Assembly: GCA_050124795.1 (NCBI GenBank)
Contig: JASFEO010000001.1
Location: 32,001-96,000, forward strand
DNA from: Candidatus Pacearchaeota archaeon
Lineage (GTDB): Archaea; Nanobdellota; Nanobdellia; Pacearchaeales; GW2011-AR1
DNA length: 64,000 nt
Reading direction: 5' to 3'
The notes beneath the pieces are model-generated. The model worked only from the letters and a program-made list of their open reading frames with translations. It was not told the origin of the DNA and searched no databases. The translations under genes and the position numbers were made by a program. How positions within the stretch are numbered: the stretch's first letter is position 1; every line of letters begins with the position of its first letter. Shown here in pieces: positions 6,122-18,201 of this stretch.

Positions 6122-6589
6122 TCACTCTAAAGAACAACTATCTCTGGAGGTTATCCTCTCTAATTCTTTTAAAAAGGAAACCATCCTTGTATAATCTTTA
6201 TTTTCTCGAATGGAATTAATATTATTAGGTTCTTTGGCTATTTTCTTAAGCAAGCCTTCAAAACCTTTTATCTTTTTTGAATATTTCTCTCTTGATTTTC
6301 CAATAGGATAGCCAACTTTCTTTAAAATTCGGGTACTAAGCCTTGAAAAGAAAGATATTTCATTTAAATCTACAAGTAATAGATTATTCCCATATTCTTT
6401 TTCAACAGAACGCCAATCAGGACCATATGACCTCATTGTTGCAAAAAGTCCTGCAGAATCTCTTCCAAGATATTCAACTTCTCCTTTAATCATATCCTTA
6501 TTTTTTTCTAAATCATCTAGGACACAGAGTGTATAATGCGCTACGTTATTAATTGAATCCCATGACATAAGAACCAAAACAAATTTCAC
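6122..6589 (-). CDS. hypothetical protein
   Basis: 155-aa ORF filling the intergenic space. Confidence 0.55.
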   Translation of the reverse strand: MKFVLVLMSWDSINNVAHYTLCVLDDLEKNKDMIKGEVEYLGRDSAGLFATMRSYGPDWRSVEKEYGNNLLLVDLNEISFFSRLSTRILKKVGYPIGKSREKYSKKIKGFEGLLKKIAKEPNNINSIRENKDYTRMVSFLKELERITSRDSCSLE

Positions 6590-6649: not shown

Positions 6650-7150
6650 ATGAAAGTAATACTTTGTGAAAAACTACCAAGAATTTTAAAGAATAAAAAA
6701 AAATTAGAGAAAACTCTAAATGTTAAAATTCAGAACAGAGGCAAAGAAGTTAAAATTGAAGGGAAAGGCGAAGATGAATTTATTGCTGAGAAAGTAATTG
6801 ATGCTCTTAATTTTGGTTTTTCTTATTCAGATGCAATCTCAATAAAATCTGAAGATTTTGATTTTGAAGTTATTAGTATAAAAGATTACACAAAAAGAAA
6901 AGATTTGAAATCAGTCAGGGCAAGGATAATTGGCGGGGGGGGGAAAACTTTGAAAGTGTTGTCAGACTTATCGCGTTGTTCTTTAGAATTAAAGGAAAAC
7001 TCAGTTGGCATAATTGGTCCGCCTGAGTGCATTCAAAACGCGATTGATGGAATTTCTTCAATTTGTCATGGCTCAAAGCAGTCAAATGTTTACAAACTTC
7101 TAGAAGAACATCAAATTAAAGAACCAGTTGATTTAGGTTTGAAGAAATAA
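6650..7150 (+). CDS. KH-domain ribosome biogenesis factor (Dim2/Pno1/Krr1 family)
   Basis: A..VIDALNFGFS..DA, RARIIGGGGKT KH motif, G.KQSNVY..LE. Confidence 0.9.
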   Translation: MKVILCEKLPRILKNKKKLEKTLNVKIQNRGKEVKIEGKGEDEFIAEKVIDALNFGFSYSDAISIKSEDFDFEVISIKDYTKRKDLKSVRARIIGGGGKTLKVLSDLSRCSLELKENSVGIIGPPECIQNAIDGISSICHGSKQSNVYKLLEEHQIKEPVDLGLKK

Positions 7151-7151
7151 T

Positions 7152-7166
7152 GTCCCTTTAGTTCAG
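7152..7166 (+). repeat. degenerate copy of tRNA-Asn exon 1
   Basis: GTCCCTTTAGTTCAG vs GTCCCCGTAGCTCAG (7937-7951): 12/15 identical, 14/17 with flanking T and A. Confidence 0.7.
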
Positions 7167-7201
7167 AAAGGTTTTATAAAAGATATTTATCTTATTAATT
7201 A

Positions 7202-7969
7202 ATGTATATTCAATTAGATAAAGAAAAACAAAAGTTAATCATAAAACAATCTATTGCTAAAGCTGGTTCTTATAGAAAATTAGCCAAAGAATTAAAGATT
7301 CCTCTTTCATCAATCTGCGCCTATGAAAATGGTAGAGTAATTCTTAAAGAAAGATTCCAAAAAATAATTAGTTTTTTAAAATTAAATCAAAGCAAATTAG
7401 ATTTCAAGGAATTAGATGACAACTGGAGACAAGTTATTGGGGGTAAAAATTGTGTTAAATCAAAAAAACAAAAAGGGACTTATGAGGAACAATTAAGAAA
7501 GGCTCAACAATCTGGAGCATTAAAATTAAAAGATTGGCATAAATCAATGAAGAAAAATAATCCTAGAAAATACTATGAAATGCAGCATTCTAAATTTAAG
7601 ATGATTGCAGGATATAAATTTATAGCAAAAAAAGGACATAAGGTTAGAAATCTCTTTGAAAAAAAGGTAGCAGATATTTTGCATGAATTAAATATTAATT
7701 ATGAATATGAGCCTTTGGTAAAATCAAGAGGGAAAAACGTCTTTCCTGATTTTGTGGTAAATAAAAAAACAATTTTAGAGTGCACTGCCTGGAGAAATGA
7801 GACAAAGGCATATCAATTAAGGGATAAGATAGAGTATTTAAAAAATAATTATCGTGTGTTTGTGGTGATTCCAAAAGGTTTATATAGATATTATCGGATT
7901 TTAGATAAACGTCTGATTCACGGATTAGATGAATTTGTCCCCGTAGCTCAGACTTTTCATTCGTCATAA
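7202..7969 (+). CDS. XRE-like HTH + PD-(D/E)xK-superfamily endonuclease; C-terminus overlaps tRNA-Asn
   Basis: HTH SYRKLAKELKIPLSSICAYENG; nuclease pattern VRNLFEKKVADIL...INYEYEP...FPDFVV...ILEC; TATA TTTTATAAA at about 7172. Confidence 0.75.
   Translation: MYIQLDKEKQKLIIKQSIAKAGSYRKLAKELKIPLSSICAYENGRVILKERFQKIISFLKLNQSKLDFKELDDNWRQVIGGKNCVKSKKQKGTYEEQLRKAQQSGALKLKDWHKSMKKNNPRKYYEMQHSKFKMIAGYKFIAKKGHKVRNLFEKKVADILHELNINYEYEPLVKSRGKNVFPDFVVNKKTILECTAWRNETKAYQLRDKIEYLKNNYRVFVVIPKGLYRYYRILDKRLIHGLDEFVPVAQTFHSS
7873..7887 (+). promoter_or_regulatory. candidate BRE/TATA for tRNA-Asn, inside the nuclease CDS
   Basis: AAAAGGTTTATATAG about 50 nt upstream of tRNA 5' end. Confidence 0.45.
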
Positions 7970-8047
7970 AAAGCGAGGAAAAGGAGCAATTGGCAGAGCG
8001 CATGGCTGTTAACCATGGTGTCGTTGGTTCGAGTCCAGCCGGGGACG
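7937..8047 (+). tRNA. tRNA-Asn(GTT) with 38-nt non-canonical intron at 15/16 (intron 7952-7989)
   Basis: Spliced cloverleaf: GTCCCCG/CGGGGAC, D stem GCTC/GAGC, CATGG-CTGTTAA-CCATG, GTTGG-TTCGAGT-CCAGC; BHB: GCTC-AGA-CTTTTC...GAAAAG-GAGC-AAT. Confidence 0.93.
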
Positions 8048-17844: not shown

Positions 17845-17890
17845 TTTCTTAATTTTATCAGAACTCTTTTTCCTTTCAGGTTTTTTATAC

Positions 17891-18146
17891 AGACTCGGGA
17901 AGGTTGCTCAAAGCTCACATGCAGGCTACCTTTATTTTTTCTCAGCTCTGCGACCTGTTAAGCATCTGTGCAAATGTTTAGGGCTGCTACATTCCTGTCC
18001 TGACCCGGTTCGCAATTGCAAGATCAAAACAGACAAAGCGTCAACGTCAAAATAAAGACCTTCAAACTCACTTGTCACGTCCTTCCTTGCAGTTTGCCAT
18101 AAAGCCCGTTTGCAAATAGCGGAGGGCTAACCCGCCAACCTAGTCT
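17891..18146 (-). ncRNA. ffs: archaeal SRP (7S) RNA
   Basis: helix 8 motif GGGTCAGGACAGGAATGTAGCAGCCC; 5' AGACT pairs with 3' AGTCT; GC-rich island with TATA upstream. Confidence 0.88.
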
Positions 18147-18201
18147 GTAAAAATATTAAAAATAATTAGTTTTTAAAACTATGTTTTTGAGAATTTTCAA
18201 A

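What the first reader, a model, noticed from the sequence alone, without database searches (positions are those of the whole stretch)
7151..8047. Candidate tRNA-targeting homing cassette: nuclease gene bracketed by two copies of tRNA-Asn exon 1 and coupled to a BHB intron
Seen, in order: Dim2 stop; decayed exon-1 copy GTCCCTTTAGTTCAG (7152-7166); TATA; a 255-aa HTH + PD-(D/E)xK-like nuclease ORF; intact exon 1 GTCCCCGTAGCTCAG (7937-7951); 38-nt intron; exon 2. The duplication ends essentially at the splice junction (15/16). Known: homing endonucleases cut alleles lacking the insertion, and tRNA-integrating elements restore the target by carrying a duplicate tRNA end. Inference: a one-gene, integrase-free element entered the original tRNA at 15/16 and supplies a new exon 1 and promoter from its own coding sequence. 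The intron would break the nuclease's target (self-immunity) while host splicing endonuclease restores the tRNA. This would be a vehicle for spreading non-canonical tRNA introns. Alternative: an ancestral ORF-containing large intron (7167-7989) whose outer exon 1 decayed.
Basis: partly seen in the sequence, partly recalled or inferred. Interest (0 to 1): 0.9.

Follow-up and report, generated by a model that had tools for sequence, protein, structure and literature searches.

The report
Selfish nuclease gene lodged in tRNA-Asn
A small nuclease gene has inserted itself into the front end of the only asparagine tRNA gene of many tiny DPANN archaea, rebuilding the tRNA from its own last codons and usually leaving an unusual intron behind, which gives a concrete example of how odd tRNA introns may arise and spread.

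Summary
Window 7152-8047 holds, in order: a decayed copy (12/15) of tRNA-Asn positions 1-15, a TATA box, a 255-aa HTH + PD-(D/E)xK-like ORF, then an intact tRNA-Asn(GUU). The tRNA's first 15 nt are the ORF's codons VPVAQ, and a 38-nt BHB intron at 15/16 holds the ORF's stop codon.

The same architecture recurs in 88 of 98 distinct homologous loci from Pacearchaeota/Woesearchaeota: 85 tRNA-Asn, 2 tRNA-Thr, 1 undetermined. Most relatives have an empty Dim2-tRNA-Asn site without ORF or 15/16 intron. Copies with in-frame stops, frameshifts or truncation exist.

One pair of loci shares a 92%-identical block, running from the upstream copy through the ORF into the tRNA, between flanks only 67% identical. 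That indicates recent horizontal transfer.

Best reading: a one-gene, integrase-free selfish cassette that homes into the tRNA's 5' part, using tRNA sequence as homology arms. It carries a replacement 5' end, an internal promoter and usually the intron.

Nuclease activity and the "intron as self-immunity" idea are untested. 26 of 87 ORF-bearing clusters lack the intron, and the canonical catalytic lysine position is Thr. It is a new variant of known kinds: homing endonuclease genes and tRNA-integrating elements that donate introns.

The parts
6650..7150 (+). Left flank: KH-domain (aDim2/Pno1-like) gene. The order eIF1A-Dim2-[cassette]-tRNA-Asn-nitroreductase is conserved in relatives.
   Evidence: Pfam KH_KRR1_2nd E 8.7e-8 (32.5 bits, cut-off 27) and KH_1 E 5.2e-6. 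Synteny by tblastn.
7152..7171 (+). U: decayed upstream copy of the tRNA-Asn 5' part. Positions 1-15 match at 12/15, possibly followed by the D-loop GG.
   Evidence: A homologous copy lies 56-60 nt before the ORF ATG in 59 of 78 clusters. It has <=5 mismatches to the local exon 1 in 57 of 78, against 0 of 234 control windows.
7172..7181 (+). TATA-like box of the ORF, about 21 nt before the ATG. A short or absent leader is inferred.
   Evidence: Aligned with the conserved TTTATAAA in 29 loci. Promoter function is inferred, not measured.
7202..7969 (+). 255-aa ORF: N-terminal XRE-type HTH, helical linker and C-terminal PD-(D/E)xK-like (T7 endonuclease I-like) domain. The last codons VPVAQ are tRNA positions 1-15, and the stop codon lies in the intron.
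   Evidence: AF2 pLDDT 95.7. Profile versus PDB T7 endonuclease I E 1.7e-4. Pfam Phage_endo_I in 6 of 46 members. PHROG endonuclease E 2.1e-5.
7879..7909 (+). A/T-rich boxes inside the ORF (TTTATATAG 7879-7887 and ATTTTAGATAAA 7898-7909). They are candidate replacement promoters for the tRNA; the second ends 27 nt before tRNA +1.
   Evidence: The same codons (YYKIL D/N) are conserved family-wide. After ORF loss in G030 and G458, only this ORF 3' end is kept in front of the tRNA. Promoter function is inferred.
7937..7951 (+). tRNA-Asn exon 1 (positions 1-15), doubly coding with ORF codons VPVAQ.
7952..7989 (+). 38-nt non-canonical intron at 15/16 with a relaxed BHB motif. It contains the ORF stop TAA at 7967-7969.
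   Evidence: Fold. In the alignment of 20 homologous introns, 4 pairs of the inner helix keep pairing through changes on both sides.
7990..8047 (+). tRNA-Asn exon 2 (positions 16-76, anticodon GTT). It is the only tRNA-Asn found in the 1.06-Mb genome.
   Evidence: ARAGORN found 37 tRNAs in the genome and none was Asn. blastn with exon 2 hit only this locus.

Best explanation
This is a roughly 0.8-kb selfish gene cassette. It encodes a single XRE-HTH + PD-(D/E)xK-type nuclease and is specialised for the 5' part of a tRNA gene, usually the single-copy tRNA-Asn(GUU), in Pacearchaeota/Woesearchaeota (DPANN) archaea.

SHOWN. The cassette sits between a displaced copy of the tRNA's first 15-27 nt (U) and a rebuilt, intact tRNA. 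In several relatives U still follows a TATA-like box like that of empty sites. The first 15 nt of the rebuilt tRNA are the ORF's last conserved codons. A/T-rich promoter-like boxes lie inside the ORF's C-terminal coding region. In about 70% of lineages the rebuilt 5' end is separated from the rest of the tRNA by a 20-38 nt BHB intron at 15/16. The cassette is patchily distributed, and close relatives have empty sites. It decays to pseudogenes and to short C-terminal remnants. In at least one pair, the block from U to the tRNA 3' end has been exchanged between hosts whose flanking genes are far more diverged.

INFERRED. The protein binds and cuts an unoccupied tRNA gene. The break is repaired from an occupied allele, with U and the tRNA body as the two homology arms (homing). 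The whole block U-ORF-tRNA is therefore copied in, and the host's own tRNA 5' end is left behind or overwritten as U. Overlap with the promoter and exon 1 of an essential single-copy tRNA makes simple deletion of the ORF costly.

MORE SPECULATIVE. The 15/16 intron splits the nuclease's recognition site in the rebuilt gene (self-immunity), and the host splicing endonuclease restores the RNA. Recombination between U and exon 1 can later delete the ORF and leave an intron-bearing, ORF-less tRNA.
For: Architecture:
- 131 loci collapse to 98 clusters at 97% nt identity.
- In 88 clusters the ORF abuts or overlaps a tRNA 5' end: 85 Asn, 2 Thr, 1 undetermined.
- In 5 more clusters, plus L170, the ORF lies just downstream of a complete tRNA-Asn. 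The remaining clusters run off contig ends.
- 90 of 108 full-length homologs end in the xAQ tRNA read-through tail.

Upstream copy U:
- It has <=5 of 15 mismatches to the local exon 1 in 57 of 78 clusters, against 0 of 234 control windows.
- It starts 56-60 nt before the ATG in 59 of 78.
- It is a perfect or near-perfect intronless copy in some loci: L096 15/15, L092 14/15, and L130 15/15 with continuation into the D-arm.
- It is unrecognisable in others: L086, L093, L094, L095 and L097. This fits insertions of different ages.

Empty sites:
- Of 30 Dim2 loci in relatives, 21 are ORF-less with tRNA-Asn next to Dim2, and 18 of those lack the 15/16 intron.
- Filled and empty sites occur within one genus: G234/G134 and G386/G142.

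Patchiness:
- Full-length or near-full-length ORFs were found in 7 of 60 relatives.
- They were found in about 13 of 400 genomes of the class, spread over at least 10 family codes.
- There is one copy per genome.

Decay:
- G036 has 3 in-frame stops, and G030 keeps only a 33-aa C-terminal remnant.
- L078, L081 and L187 match as two overlapping tblastn segments, and L082 is truncated.
- G458 keeps an ORF C-terminal remnant of about 20 aa in front of tRNA-Thr.

Horizontal transfer:
- Between L054 and L057 the ORF is 91.8% nt identical, Dim2 67.1% and eIF1A 67.3%.
- The high-identity block starts at U and ends at the tRNA 3' end.
- An AU test rejects monophyly of the ORFs from host family f1, p 0.028.
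- Over 1176 pairs, mean ORF identity (52.8%) exceeds that of the neighbouring Dim2 (42.9%).

Protein:
- E153, D183 and E193 are invariant in 46 sequences and align with the E...PD...E residues of T7 endonuclease I.
- AF2 pLDDT is 95.7.
- The top weak Foldseek hits are mostly PD-(D/E)xK nucleases and HTH proteins.

Intron link:
- The intron is present in 61 of 87 ORF-bearing clusters, against 3 of 21 ORF-less sites.
- For tRNA-Thr(TGT) it is present in 2 of 2 ORF-bearing loci and 0 of 6 interpretable ORF-less relatives.
- The BHB shows covariation, and the genome encodes EndA.
Against: - No cleavage activity, target site or homing event has been observed.
- The canonical Lys of the (D/E)xK motif is a nearly invariant Thr (T195), so activity must rely on another residue (K202?) or could be absent.
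- All family and fold matches are below curated cut-offs, or have Foldseek E > 0.03.
- 26 of 87 ORF-bearing clusters have no 15/16 intron. These include L054/L057, the clearest recent transfer. The intron is therefore not needed for persistence or spread.
- 3 ORF-less sites have the intron.
- Related cassettes share derived changes in U, for example L052/L054/L057 and L001/L053/L069. Much of the pattern is therefore vertical descent. Kin are not independent, so the counts overstate the number of independent events.
- Only 1 strong and 1 moderate excess-similarity pair were found among the 6 close pairs with Dim2 available.
- The AU-test group was defined by host family code, but I named it after I had seen a first tree.
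- Configuration II (tRNA-U-ORF) and inverted blocks are not explained by simple homing.
- The only sequencing run that holds the locus showed no empty allele. It is kept as contigs only and may be the source sample.
Confidence: 0.6

Rival explanations
1. It is a minimal integrative element of the att-site type. The tRNA 5' fragment carried by the cassette acts as an attP-like site. Integration and excision go through a circular form by site-specific or short-homology recombination. This follows the model proposed for Caldiarchaeum tRNA-Thr, where an attP carrying an intron recombines with an intronless attB. The nuclease would serve excision/integration or addiction rather than classical double-strand-break homing.
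For: Direct repeats of the tRNA 5' part flank a single gene that lies next to the rebuilt tRNA on the same strand. That layout is the one described for pNOB8-type borders and for the Caldiarchaeum insert (PMC3293823, abstract and Discussion read). The best weak fold match is XisH, an excision-controlling PD-(D/E)xK protein. The intron lies inside the repeat carried by the element.
Against: No integrase or recombinase domain is found in the ORF or between the repeats. The transferred block in L054/L057 extends through the whole tRNA to its 3' end. That fits gene conversion with the tRNA as homology better than a crossover confined to a 15-27 nt att core. No circular or excised form was seen, though only one run kept as contigs was available.
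Confidence: 0.17
2. It is a domesticated or host-beneficial gene, for example a DNA-binding regulator or repair nuclease tied to tRNA-Asn expression. It would be inherited vertically from an ancient single insertion and lost many times. The upstream copy would be kept because it forms part of the ORF's promoter or operator.
For: Synteny is conserved across families. The ORF is intact and well conserved in about 90 clusters, with invariant residues. U sits at a fixed distance directly in front of the ORF's TATA box, and it is retained even where no tRNA follows the ORF (configuration II). Related ORFs share derived features in U.
Against: The ORF is absent from most genomes, including congeners. 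Pseudogenes and remnants exist. The U-to-tRNA block is 92% identical between flanks that are 67% identical. The ORF tree conflicts with host families, p 0.028. The family has also colonised a second isotype, tRNA-Thr, in a different genomic context.
Confidence: 0.12
3. It is a giant ORF-containing BHB intron. The upstream copy would be the true exon 1, and everything from 7167 to 7989 would be spliced out. This resembles the homing-endonuclease-bearing introns of archaeal rRNA genes. The inner exon 1 would be a later duplicate.
For: In the window U keeps GUUC, which can still pair with the intron's GAGC, and it is followed by an AGA bulge-like triplet. In L096 and L092, U matches exon 1 at 15/15 and 14/15 and its similarity stops exactly at position 15.
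Against: In many loci U continues as an intronless D-arm to roughly position 24-27 (L130, L078, L088, L008, L007). It does not break off at 15. In most loci U has changes at positions 6-7 and 11-15 that break acceptor or D-stem pairing. In the window no room is left for a promoter between the Dim2 stop and U. The inner exon 1 with its short intron is the conserved, covarying structure.
Confidence: 0.04
4. It is a chance resemblance or an assembly artefact.
For: None beyond the shortness (15 nt) of the repeat in the window itself.
Against: Shuffles expect 0.11 matches per window, and 0 of 100 shuffles reach two matches. The same arrangement is found in independent assemblies from many studies.
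Confidence: 0.01

Closest known systems
Caldiarchaeum subterraneum tRNA-Thr(GGU) locus: a tRNA 5' fragment, a 1.8-kb insert with a putative recombinase, and a tRNA that gained an intron (Sugahara et al. 2012, PMC3293823; abstract and Discussion read)
   Same: A displaced 5' tRNA fragment lies upstream. A mobile insert has its gene next to the rebuilt tRNA on the same strand. The rebuilt tRNA carries an extra non-canonical intron that the authors attribute to the element. They also suggest that the intron protects against further invasion.
   Different: That case is a single locus in one population, with a putative recombinase, an intron at 24/25 and no coding overlap. Here the case is a protein family seen in about 98 sequence clusters. 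It has a PD-(D/E)xK-like nuclease and no recombinase. The ORF overlaps exon 1 and the intron, the promoter lies inside the ORF, and the intron is at 15/16 on tRNA-Asn and tRNA-Thr.
Free-standing homing endonuclease genes and 'collaborative homing' (review PMC3984707, one passage read; listing)
   Same: The gene is a nuclease gene outside any self-splicing element, next to a conserved target gene. An ORF-less intron sits in or near the presumed target site, and the nuclease gene and intron could move together.
   Different: Those are phage systems with group I introns and GIY-YIG, HNH or Endo VII-type enzymes. Here the host is an archaeal chromosome and the intron is a protein-spliced BHB intron. 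The element also duplicates part of the target so that the tRNA stays intact. Cleavage of the intron-less site is not shown here.
I-Ssp6803I, a PD-(D/E)xK homing endonuclease. Its location in a group I intron of a cyanobacterial tRNA-fMet gene is recalled; only a reference title was seen in the reference list of PMC3943268
   Same: It shows that a PD-(D/E)xK-fold nuclease can act as a homing enzyme on a tRNA gene.
   Different: No detectable sequence match: it did not appear in the profile search of PDB at E <= 10. It is intron-encoded and bacterial and has no HTH domain.
Phage T7 endonuclease I (PDB 2pfj, 1m0d; Pfam PF05367)
   Same: It is the best sequence-profile match of the nuclease domain (E 1.7e-4). 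The motifs LE, YEYE, PDF and the E of the third strand align.
   Different: T7 endonuclease I is a structure-specific junction resolvase without an HTH domain. Its catalytic Lys position aligns with Thr195 here. Scores are below Pfam's cut-off.
tRNA-targeting integrative elements of archaea (SSV-type and pNOB8-type integrases), as summarised in PMC3293823
   Same: They integrate into a tRNA gene, rebuild the gene and leave a direct repeat of part of it.
   Different: No tyrosine integrase is present, the element is one gene long, and the repeat is the 5' rather than the usual 3' part.

Membership tests
Homing endonuclease gene (functional class) | Encodes a site-specific DNA endonuclease that cuts the unoccupied allele | not testable with these tools
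   Only fold and motif evidence for a nuclease is available. No activity data exist.
Homing endonuclease gene (functional class) | Occupies one fixed site in a conserved host gene, with presence/absence among close relatives | tested here: met
   It is always at a tRNA 5' end. 21 ORF-less Dim2-tRNA-Asn sites were found among 30 Dim2 loci. Filled and empty pairs occur within genera. There is one copy per genome.
Homing endonuclease gene (functional class) | Horizontal spread, seen as incongruence with the host or excess similarity relative to the flanks | tested here: met
   Between L054 and L057 the ORF is 91.8% nt identical and Dim2 67.1%. The AU test gives p 0.028. Only 1 strong and 1 moderate case were found among 6 close pairs with Dim2.
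Homing endonuclease gene (functional class) | Cycle of invasion, degeneration and loss | tested here: met
   G036 has 3 in-frame stops and G030 keeps a 33-aa remnant. L078, L081 and L187 match as two overlapping segments, and L082 is truncated. G458 keeps a remnant.
Homing endonuclease gene (functional class) | Occupied allele is immune to its own enzyme | not testable with these tools
   An intron in the presumed site is present in 61 of 87 clusters and absent in 26 of 87. The mechanism is unknown.
PD-(D/E)xK nuclease superfamily | Restriction-endonuclease-like alpha/beta core | tested here: inconclusive
   The AF2 model (pLDDT 95.7) has a helix, four strands, a helix and a strand over residues 151-223. 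The top Foldseek hits are mostly PD-(D/E)xK proteins, but none has E <= 0.001; the best is 0.036.
PD-(D/E)xK nuclease superfamily | Acidic residues of the motif (E in helix 1, D in PD, D/E in the third strand) | tested here: met
   E153, D183 and E193 are invariant in 46 sequences. They align with the matching LE, PDF and E residues of T7 endonuclease I.
PD-(D/E)xK nuclease superfamily | Lysine two residues after the second acidic residue | tested here: not met
   The position is Thr195, conserved in at least 90% of sequences. The conserved K202 in the next helix might substitute, but this is inference.
Pfam PF05367 Phage_endo_I / PF15649 Tox-REase-7 | Score above the curated gathering cut-off | tested here: not met
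   For the window protein, Tox-REase-7 scores 14 bits against a cut-off of 25. Phage_endo_I matches 6 of 46 members at E <= 0.01, best 2.1e-4.
XRE/Cro-type helix-turn-helix | HTH domain match | tested here: inconclusive
   HTH_19 scores 21.3 bits against a cut-off of 30.2. HTH_3 matches 11 of 46 members. The fold matches HipB with prob 0.99 and TM 0.70 on the target.
Archaeal BHB (bulge-helix-bulge) tRNA intron | A 4-bp central helix flanked by two 3-nt bulges that carry the splice sites | tested here: met
   It is the relaxed form: the outer helix is weak or absent.
Archaeal BHB (bulge-helix-bulge) tRNA intron | Structure conserved with compensatory changes | tested here: met
   4 of 14 predicted pairs keep pairing through changes on both sides in 20 sequences.
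Archaeal BHB (bulge-helix-bulge) tRNA intron | Splicing endonuclease present and splicing observed | tested here: inconclusive
   One EndA (PF01974, 103 bits) is present in the genome. No RNA data exist: no RNA run was listed.
Integrase-type tRNA-integrating element | Tyrosine or serine recombinase encoded by the element | tested here: not met
   No such domain is found in the only ORF between the repeats.
Integrase-type tRNA-integrating element | Direct repeat of part of the tRNA at both borders, with the tRNA rebuilt | tested here: met

The most novel reading that the evidence does not exclude
The cassette is a generator and carrier of non-canonical tRNA introns. On this reading the 15/16 BHB intron arose inside the element's own tRNA-restoring end. 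Exon 1 plus intron resembles a tRNA 1-27 fragment whose D-loop has been replaced by a hairpin and which ends in the D-stem strand GAGC followed by AA. The intron then travels with the nuclease gene into intronless tRNA genes, including a jump from tRNA-Asn to tRNA-Thr. It stays behind as an ORF-less intron after recombination between the two exon-1 copies. This would be a directly testable DNA-level route of intron gain in archaeal tRNAs. It would also be a new kind of homing element, one that keeps its essential target working by duplicating and overprinting it rather than by being spliced out itself.
Probability: 0.4. Interest if true: 0.9.

Novelty: new variant of a known kind. Interest (0 to 1): 0.8.

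Why it matters
How archaeal tRNA genes acquire introns at non-canonical positions is an open question. A 2026 census of Asgard tRNA introns tested mobile elements and other routes and concluded that how introns arrive remains open (bioRxiv 10.64898/2026.10.13.758758; abstract and passages read). So far the mobile-element model rests mainly on one Caldiarchaeum locus (PMC3293823).

Here the same logic appears as a recurrent family with many independent-looking states:
- filled sites with an intron;
- filled sites without an intron;
- empty sites;
- ORF-less sites with an intron;
- decayed remnants;
- a second target isotype.

The model can therefore be tested by comparison and at the bench.

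The finding also shows an unusual gene overlap. A protein's last codons, its stop codon, a tRNA promoter, a tRNA exon and an intron share the same DNA. In addition, standard tRNA finders report no tRNA-Asn in such genomes, which bears on completeness estimates for DPANN genomes. A compact DNA-binding nuclease aimed at a tRNA gene could also be of interest as a tool.

My literature searches returned no paper describing this family. Subscription journals and supplements were not searchable.

Tried and rejected
- **Chance match.** Rejected (controls).
- **'Refresh' idea.** I considered that U is the recipient's own exon 1, renewed at every homing event. It is only partly tenable. U tracks the local acceptor stem in several loci, such as L005, L007, L062, L078, L092, L096 and L130. 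But related cassettes share derived changes in U, and in L054/L057 U travels with the block. I kept it only as a possibility for the first few nucleotides.
- **Giant intron.** Judged unlikely; see the rivals.
- **The search for related loci.** The single protein found nothing in genome contigs. A narrower alignment, A2, worked.
- **Viral contigs.** No relative was found.
- **NCBIfam.** No family matched.
- **Foldseek versus PDB.** No match at E <= 0.001. The viral fold library was not searched.
- **PADLOC.** One short match to PDC-S68 (E 5.9e-7, residues 140-189), not interpreted.
- **Intron start elsewhere in the genome.** A search found only two unrelated 13-nt matches.
- **Sequencing runs.** One DNA run held the locus. 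It is kept as contigs and may be the source sample. No RNA holder was listed. Laying it showed no empty allele or joint, only other organisms' tRNA pieces.
- **Within-genus filled/empty pairs.** They were too diverged (about 66-68% nt in the flanks) to fix the insertion boundaries to the base.
- **Not used.** Complex prediction and the protein atlas were not run. Supplements of papers were closed and were not consulted; those of PMC3293823 might hold details of its insert.
Full report
**1. What is in the window**

- A KH-domain gene occupies 6650-7150. Pfam gives KH_KRR1_2nd E 8.7e-8, above its cut-off. This is the archaeal Dim2/Pno1-like protein. It ends with TAA at 7148-7150.
- One base later comes GTCCCTTTAGTTCAG (7152-7166).
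- TTTTATAAAA follows at 7172-7181.
- A 255-aa ORF occupies 7202-7969.
- GTCCCCGTAGCTCAG (7937-7951) lies inside the ORF's last codons, which read V-P-V-A-Q.
- Then come 38 nt (7952-7989) that contain the ORF's stop codon (7967-7969).
- The last part is 58 nt (7990-8047), which completes a tRNA.

When a script removed the 38 nt, ARAGORN called a 73-nt tRNA-Asn(gtt). ARAGORN and Rfam both miss the uninterrupted-looking gene.

The 15-mer has exactly two matches in the window at up to 3 mismatches, against 0.11 expected. None of 100 shuffles gave two matches.

The pre-tRNA folds with a z-score of -3.4. The structure has:
- a 4-bp helix between GCUC (positions 10-13) and a GAGC at the intron's 3' end;
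- 3-nt bulges AG|A and AA|U that carry the two splice sites;
- an inner hairpin.
This is a relaxed bulge-helix-bulge motif.

This is the only tRNA-Asn I could find in the 1.06-Mb, 90%-complete genome. ARAGORN found 37 tRNAs there and none was Asn, and blastn with exon 2 hit only this locus. The genome encodes one EndA splicing endonuclease. According to passages of Kaneta et al. 2018 (PMC5829648), DPANN lineages carry alpha4-type EndAs with an extra loop associated with disrupted tRNA genes, and their tRNA sets are often predicted incompletely.

**2. The protein**

Pfam gives only sub-threshold matches for the window protein: HTH_19 at E 2.5e-4 and Tox-REase-7 at E 0.06. NCBIfam gives nothing.

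The word-indexed search found 121 homologs at E <= 0.001, of which 120 were listed. They are 40-64% identical, mostly 250-265 aa, and are named hypothetical proteins of Pacearchaeota or Woesearchaeota where named at all. The exhaustive profile search found 1149 proteins at E <= 0.001 and 52 at E <= 1e-30.

A 46-sequence alignment has invariant E153, D183 (in PDF) and E193, and nearly invariant T195, W197 and K202.

AlphaFold2 on this alignment gives pLDDT 95.7. The model has an N-terminal helical HTH domain, long linker helices and a C-terminal alpha/beta domain.

Foldseek against PDB finds nothing at E <= 0.001. Its best weak hits are mostly PD-(D/E)xK proteins (XisH, the R2 restriction-like endonuclease domain, AF1548, OkrAI, N.BspD6I, T7 endonuclease I). 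For the N-terminus the hits are HipB and Cro-like HTH proteins.

A profile search of PDB sequences gives T7 endonuclease I at E 1.7e-4. The alignment lines up LE, YEYE, PDF and the strand-3 glutamate. The position of T7's catalytic lysine aligns with Thr195 (that this position is the catalytic Lys in T7 endonuclease I is recalled).

Pfam Phage_endo_I matches 6 of 46 members, and a PHROG 'endonuclease' family matches at E 2.1e-5.

The protein is therefore credibly an HTH-plus-restriction-fold nuclease. It fails one defining feature, the canonical lysine, and its activity is unproven.

**3. The association with a tRNA is family-wide**

The C-termini of the homologs give it away. 90 of 108 full-length proteins end with xAQ (mostly VPVAQ). 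In 79 of them T/S-F/I/Y follows, which is the translation of the intron start ACTTT. In 6, D-loop read-through follows, such as ...VAQLVRAHGC-stop. That is an intronless tRNA-Asn read to the TAA in its anticodon loop. Distant representatives show similar tails.

I collected loci from three sources: relatives of the window's genome, one genome per species and metagenomes. The 131 loci collapse to 98 clusters at 97% nt identity. The tally is as follows.
- In 88 clusters the ORF abuts or overlaps the 5' end of a tRNA on the same strand: 85 Asn, 2 Thr(TGT) and 1 cut by a contig end.
- In 5 clusters, plus L170, no tRNA follows the ORF. Instead a complete tRNA-Asn lies just upstream, in the order tRNA-U-ORF-nitroreductase. 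I call this configuration II.
- The remaining clusters run off contig ends.

The overlap comes in three forms:
- in frame as VPVAQ, which is the majority;
- in another frame that ends at the TAG of positions 8-10 (L068, L070-L072);
- no overlap, with the ORF ending about 35 nt before the tRNA (L008, L076).

No relative was found in viral contigs.

**4. The upstream copy (U)**

In every relative with enough sequence, a copy of the local exon 1 lies 785-878 nt upstream of exon 1.

Across clusters with at least 110 nt of upstream sequence, the best match to the local exon 1 has 5 or fewer mismatches of 15 in 57 of 78. In 234 control windows taken inside the ORFs, none was that good. The match starts 56-60 nt before the ATG in 59 of 78.

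The alignment of this region shows U directly followed by a conserved TTTATAAA box, with non-conserved sequence on both sides. This suggests a short or absent mRNA leader.

In many loci U continues beyond position 15 as an intronless D-arm. Examples are L130, which is 15/15 and then continues into CAGG.TAGA, and L078, L088, L008 and L007. In L096 and L092 the similarity (15/15 and 14/15) stops at 15.

In several loci a TATA-like box like that of empty sites precedes U (L051, L053).

U's state of decay varies widely. It is perfect in some loci and unrecognisable in five of the nine class-level loci with upstream sequence.

U follows the local acceptor-stem sequence (GCC... versus GTC...), even between sister ORFs. 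But related cassettes also share derived changes in U (L052/L054/L057; L001/L053/L069). Much of U's history is therefore shared with the ORF.

**5. Empty sites, patchiness and decay**

Dim2 was found in 57 of 61 related genomes. I read 30 of these Dim2 loci.
- 4 carry the ORF or its remains.
- 21 have tRNA-Asn right after Dim2 with no ORF, one of them on the opposite strand. 18 of the 21 have no 15/16 intron. 3 have it (L034, L036, L043), with the ordinary upstream TATA box.
- 3 show no tRNA within 260 nt.
- 1 is at a contig end.
- 1 is unclear.

Full-length or near-full-length ORF matches occur in 7 of 60 relatives. One of these has three in-frame stops, and one is split over two contig ends. 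G030 keeps only a 33-residue C-terminal remnant, although it has U and an intron-bearing tRNA at the normal spacing.

In a sample of 400 other genomes of the class, about 13 have a full-length match, in at least 10 family codes. Presence and absence both occur within genera g63 and g64. The absent members have plain Dim2-TATA-intronless tRNA-Asn sites.

Further copies match as two overlapping tblastn segments (L078, L081, L187) or are truncated (L082).

**6. Horizontal transfer**

Between L054 and L057 the ORF is 91.8% identical in DNA (91.3% in protein). The adjacent Dim2 is 67.1% (61.4%) and eIF1A is 67.3%.

A sliding window places the high-identity block from the start of U, through the TATA box and ORF, into the tRNA. 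Similarity collapses immediately after the tRNA's 3' end. The unit that moved is therefore U-ORF-tRNA, that is, an 'interrupted tRNA gene' whose two ends are tRNA sequence. This is what one expects if tRNA sequence itself supplies the homology for repair between otherwise diverged genomes.

Of the other five close pairs with Dim2 available, one shows a moderate excess (L072/L166: ORF 81.9% against Dim2 70.9%, the latter over only 203 nt). Four show none.

An AU test rejects a tree in which the ORFs of the three family-f1 hosts form one clade against those of f3 and f7 hosts (p 0.028). The group was defined by host family code, but I had already seen a first tree.

Over 1176 pairs from 49 clusters, the ORF is on average more similar (52.8%) than the neighbouring Dim2 (42.9%). 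In the two closest, evidently vertical pairs it evolves as fast as Dim2 or faster. This is suggestive of exchange, not proof.

**7. The intron**

20 homologous introns align with an invariant central helix. Their inner helix keeps pairing through changes on both sides at 4 pairs.

The intron is present in 61 of 87 determinable ORF-bearing clusters, against 3 of 21 ORF-less Dim2-adjacent sites. These counts include kin and are not independent.

Two homologs sit in front of tRNA-Thr(TGT) in other genomic contexts (G169, G110). Both tRNAs have an intron at 15/16. G169 also has a U that copies the intronless tRNA-Thr 5' part, including its own D-loop.

Among relatives of G169, 6 interpretable ORF-less tRNA-Thr(TGT) genes all lack that intron. 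One of them, G458, is from a different family code. Its tRNA-Thr matches G169's at 98% over 62 nt and at 100% over 59 nt of exon 2. About 59 nt upstream of it are homologous to the ORF's 3' end and read ...KIYKALKNKITGLNDASVAQ. It looks like a decayed former carrier that kept only the promoter-bearing end of the ORF.

Because U is of the intronless type while the rebuilt gene carries the intron, the intron came with, or arose within, the cassette-bearing allele.

Against a strict immunity role: 26 of 87 clusters have the ORF but no 15/16 intron. The intron seems to have been lost inside intron-bearing clades (L054, L057, L069). The clearest transfer (L054/L057) involves intronless genes.

**8. 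Mechanism: what is shown and what is inferred**

Shown:
- the anatomy;
- its recurrence;
- the empty, decayed and remnant states;
- one clear block transfer;
- the intron's structure and its statistical tie to the ORF on two isotypes.

Inferred:
- the protein cuts unoccupied tRNA genes;
- repair copies the block, using U and the tRNA body as arms;
- the A/T boxes inside the ORF (7879-7887 and 7898-7909) drive the tRNA;
- overlap with an essential gene stabilises the ORF;
- recombination between U and exon 1 yields the ORF-less, intron-bearing sites.

Speculative:
- the intron protects the rebuilt gene from the element's own nuclease;
- U doubles as an operator for the HTH domain, by analogy with I-TevI autorepression (recalled);
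- the intron originated from the overlap of a tRNA 1-27 fragment carried by the element with the remainder of the target. The basis is that exon 1 plus intron ends in GAGC-AA, like the D-stem end of long U copies.

**9. Comparison with what is known**

The closest precedent is the Caldiarchaeum tRNA-Thr locus of Sugahara et al. 2012 (PMC3293823; abstract and Discussion read). It has a 5' tRNA fragment, a 1.8-kb insert with a putative recombinase, and a tRNA with an extra intron. The authors explain it by recombination of an intron-bearing attP with an intronless attB, and they suggest a protective role for the intron.

Free-standing homing endonucleases that cooperate with ORF-less introns ('collaborative homing') are known in phages (PMC3984707, one passage).

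PD-(D/E)xK homing enzymes exist. I-Ssp6803I is one; I saw only a reference title, and its tRNA-fMet intron location is recalled.

What differs here:
- the single nuclease gene without a recombinase;
- the DPANN hosts;
- the coding overlap of ORF, promoter, exon and intron;
- the 5'-end target duplication;
- the scale, about 98 clusters on two isotypes.

I found no paper describing this family. The library lacks most subscription journals, and supplements were closed.

I therefore rate it a new variant of known kinds rather than categorically new.

**10. Verdict**

It is unproven as to how it moves. The claim that the intron is its immunity device is weakened, though not excluded.

Noticed in passing
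L164/L165, L178/L179, L181, L170, L168, L152 (metagenome loci): Configuration II. A complete tRNA-Asn without a 15/16 intron follows Dim2. Then come a U-type 5' fragment, the TATA box and the ORF, then nitroreductase, with no tRNA after the ORF. For L168 only the 3' end of the upstream tRNA is in the contig, and for L152 there is too little upstream sequence to see one. Simple homing does not explain this. It may come from a tandem target duplication followed by loss of the redundant rebuilt tRNA.
   Followed up: partly
L070, L071, L149, L150, L158, L163, L176; also ORF-less L037 (G001): The whole U-ORF-tRNA block is inverted between Dim2 and nitroreductase. In G001 the tRNA-Asn alone is inverted.
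   Followed up: no
L028 (G021), just after Dim2: An exon-1-like 15-mer (GTTCCAGTAGCTCAT) is followed by about 35 nt and then an intact tRNA-Asn without a 15/16 intron, with no ORF. This may be a footprint of a deleted cassette.
   Followed up: no
L056, L061 (=L003), L082, L117, L123, downstream of tRNA-Asn: A second copy of the last 17 nt of the tRNA (0-2 mismatches) lies 46-152 nt after the tRNA in 5 of 63 loci. This suggests a different small insertion at the 3' end of the same tRNA. It is not present in the window.
   Followed up: partly
window 7937-8047; whole genome G000: ARAGORN and Rfam both miss this tRNA. ARAGORN finds 37 tRNAs in the genome, with no Asn and no Tyr. Other tRNAs may also be interrupted at non-canonical positions.
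   Followed up: partly
L094, L096, L097, L095 (class-level loci): These tRNAs carry two or three introns: 15/16, one inside the anticodon stem region, and one near 37/38. L095 also has one in the T-arm region.
   Followed up: no
window 6122-6589 (- strand): A 155-aa ORF with no Pfam match lies between eIF1A and Dim2 on the opposite strand. By tblastn it was found only in the window's own locus among the loci compared.
   Followed up: no
L081 (record titled Candidatus Omnitrophota bacterium, 2.6-kb contig): A typical archaeal eIF1A-Dim2-U-ORF-tRNA-Asn locus, whose ORF matches as two overlapping segments, sits in a bin labelled as a bacterium. It is probably mis-binned.
   Followed up: no
G000:C4:61396-61635 (- strand), L002: There is a second, weak match (32% identity over residues 8-84) to the HTH part only, elsewhere in the same genome. 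Similar HTH-only matches occur in several relatives.
   Followed up: no
window 17887-18150 (- strand): An archaeal SRP RNA is present (Rfam, 98 bits), which confirms that the window is archaeal.
   Followed up: no
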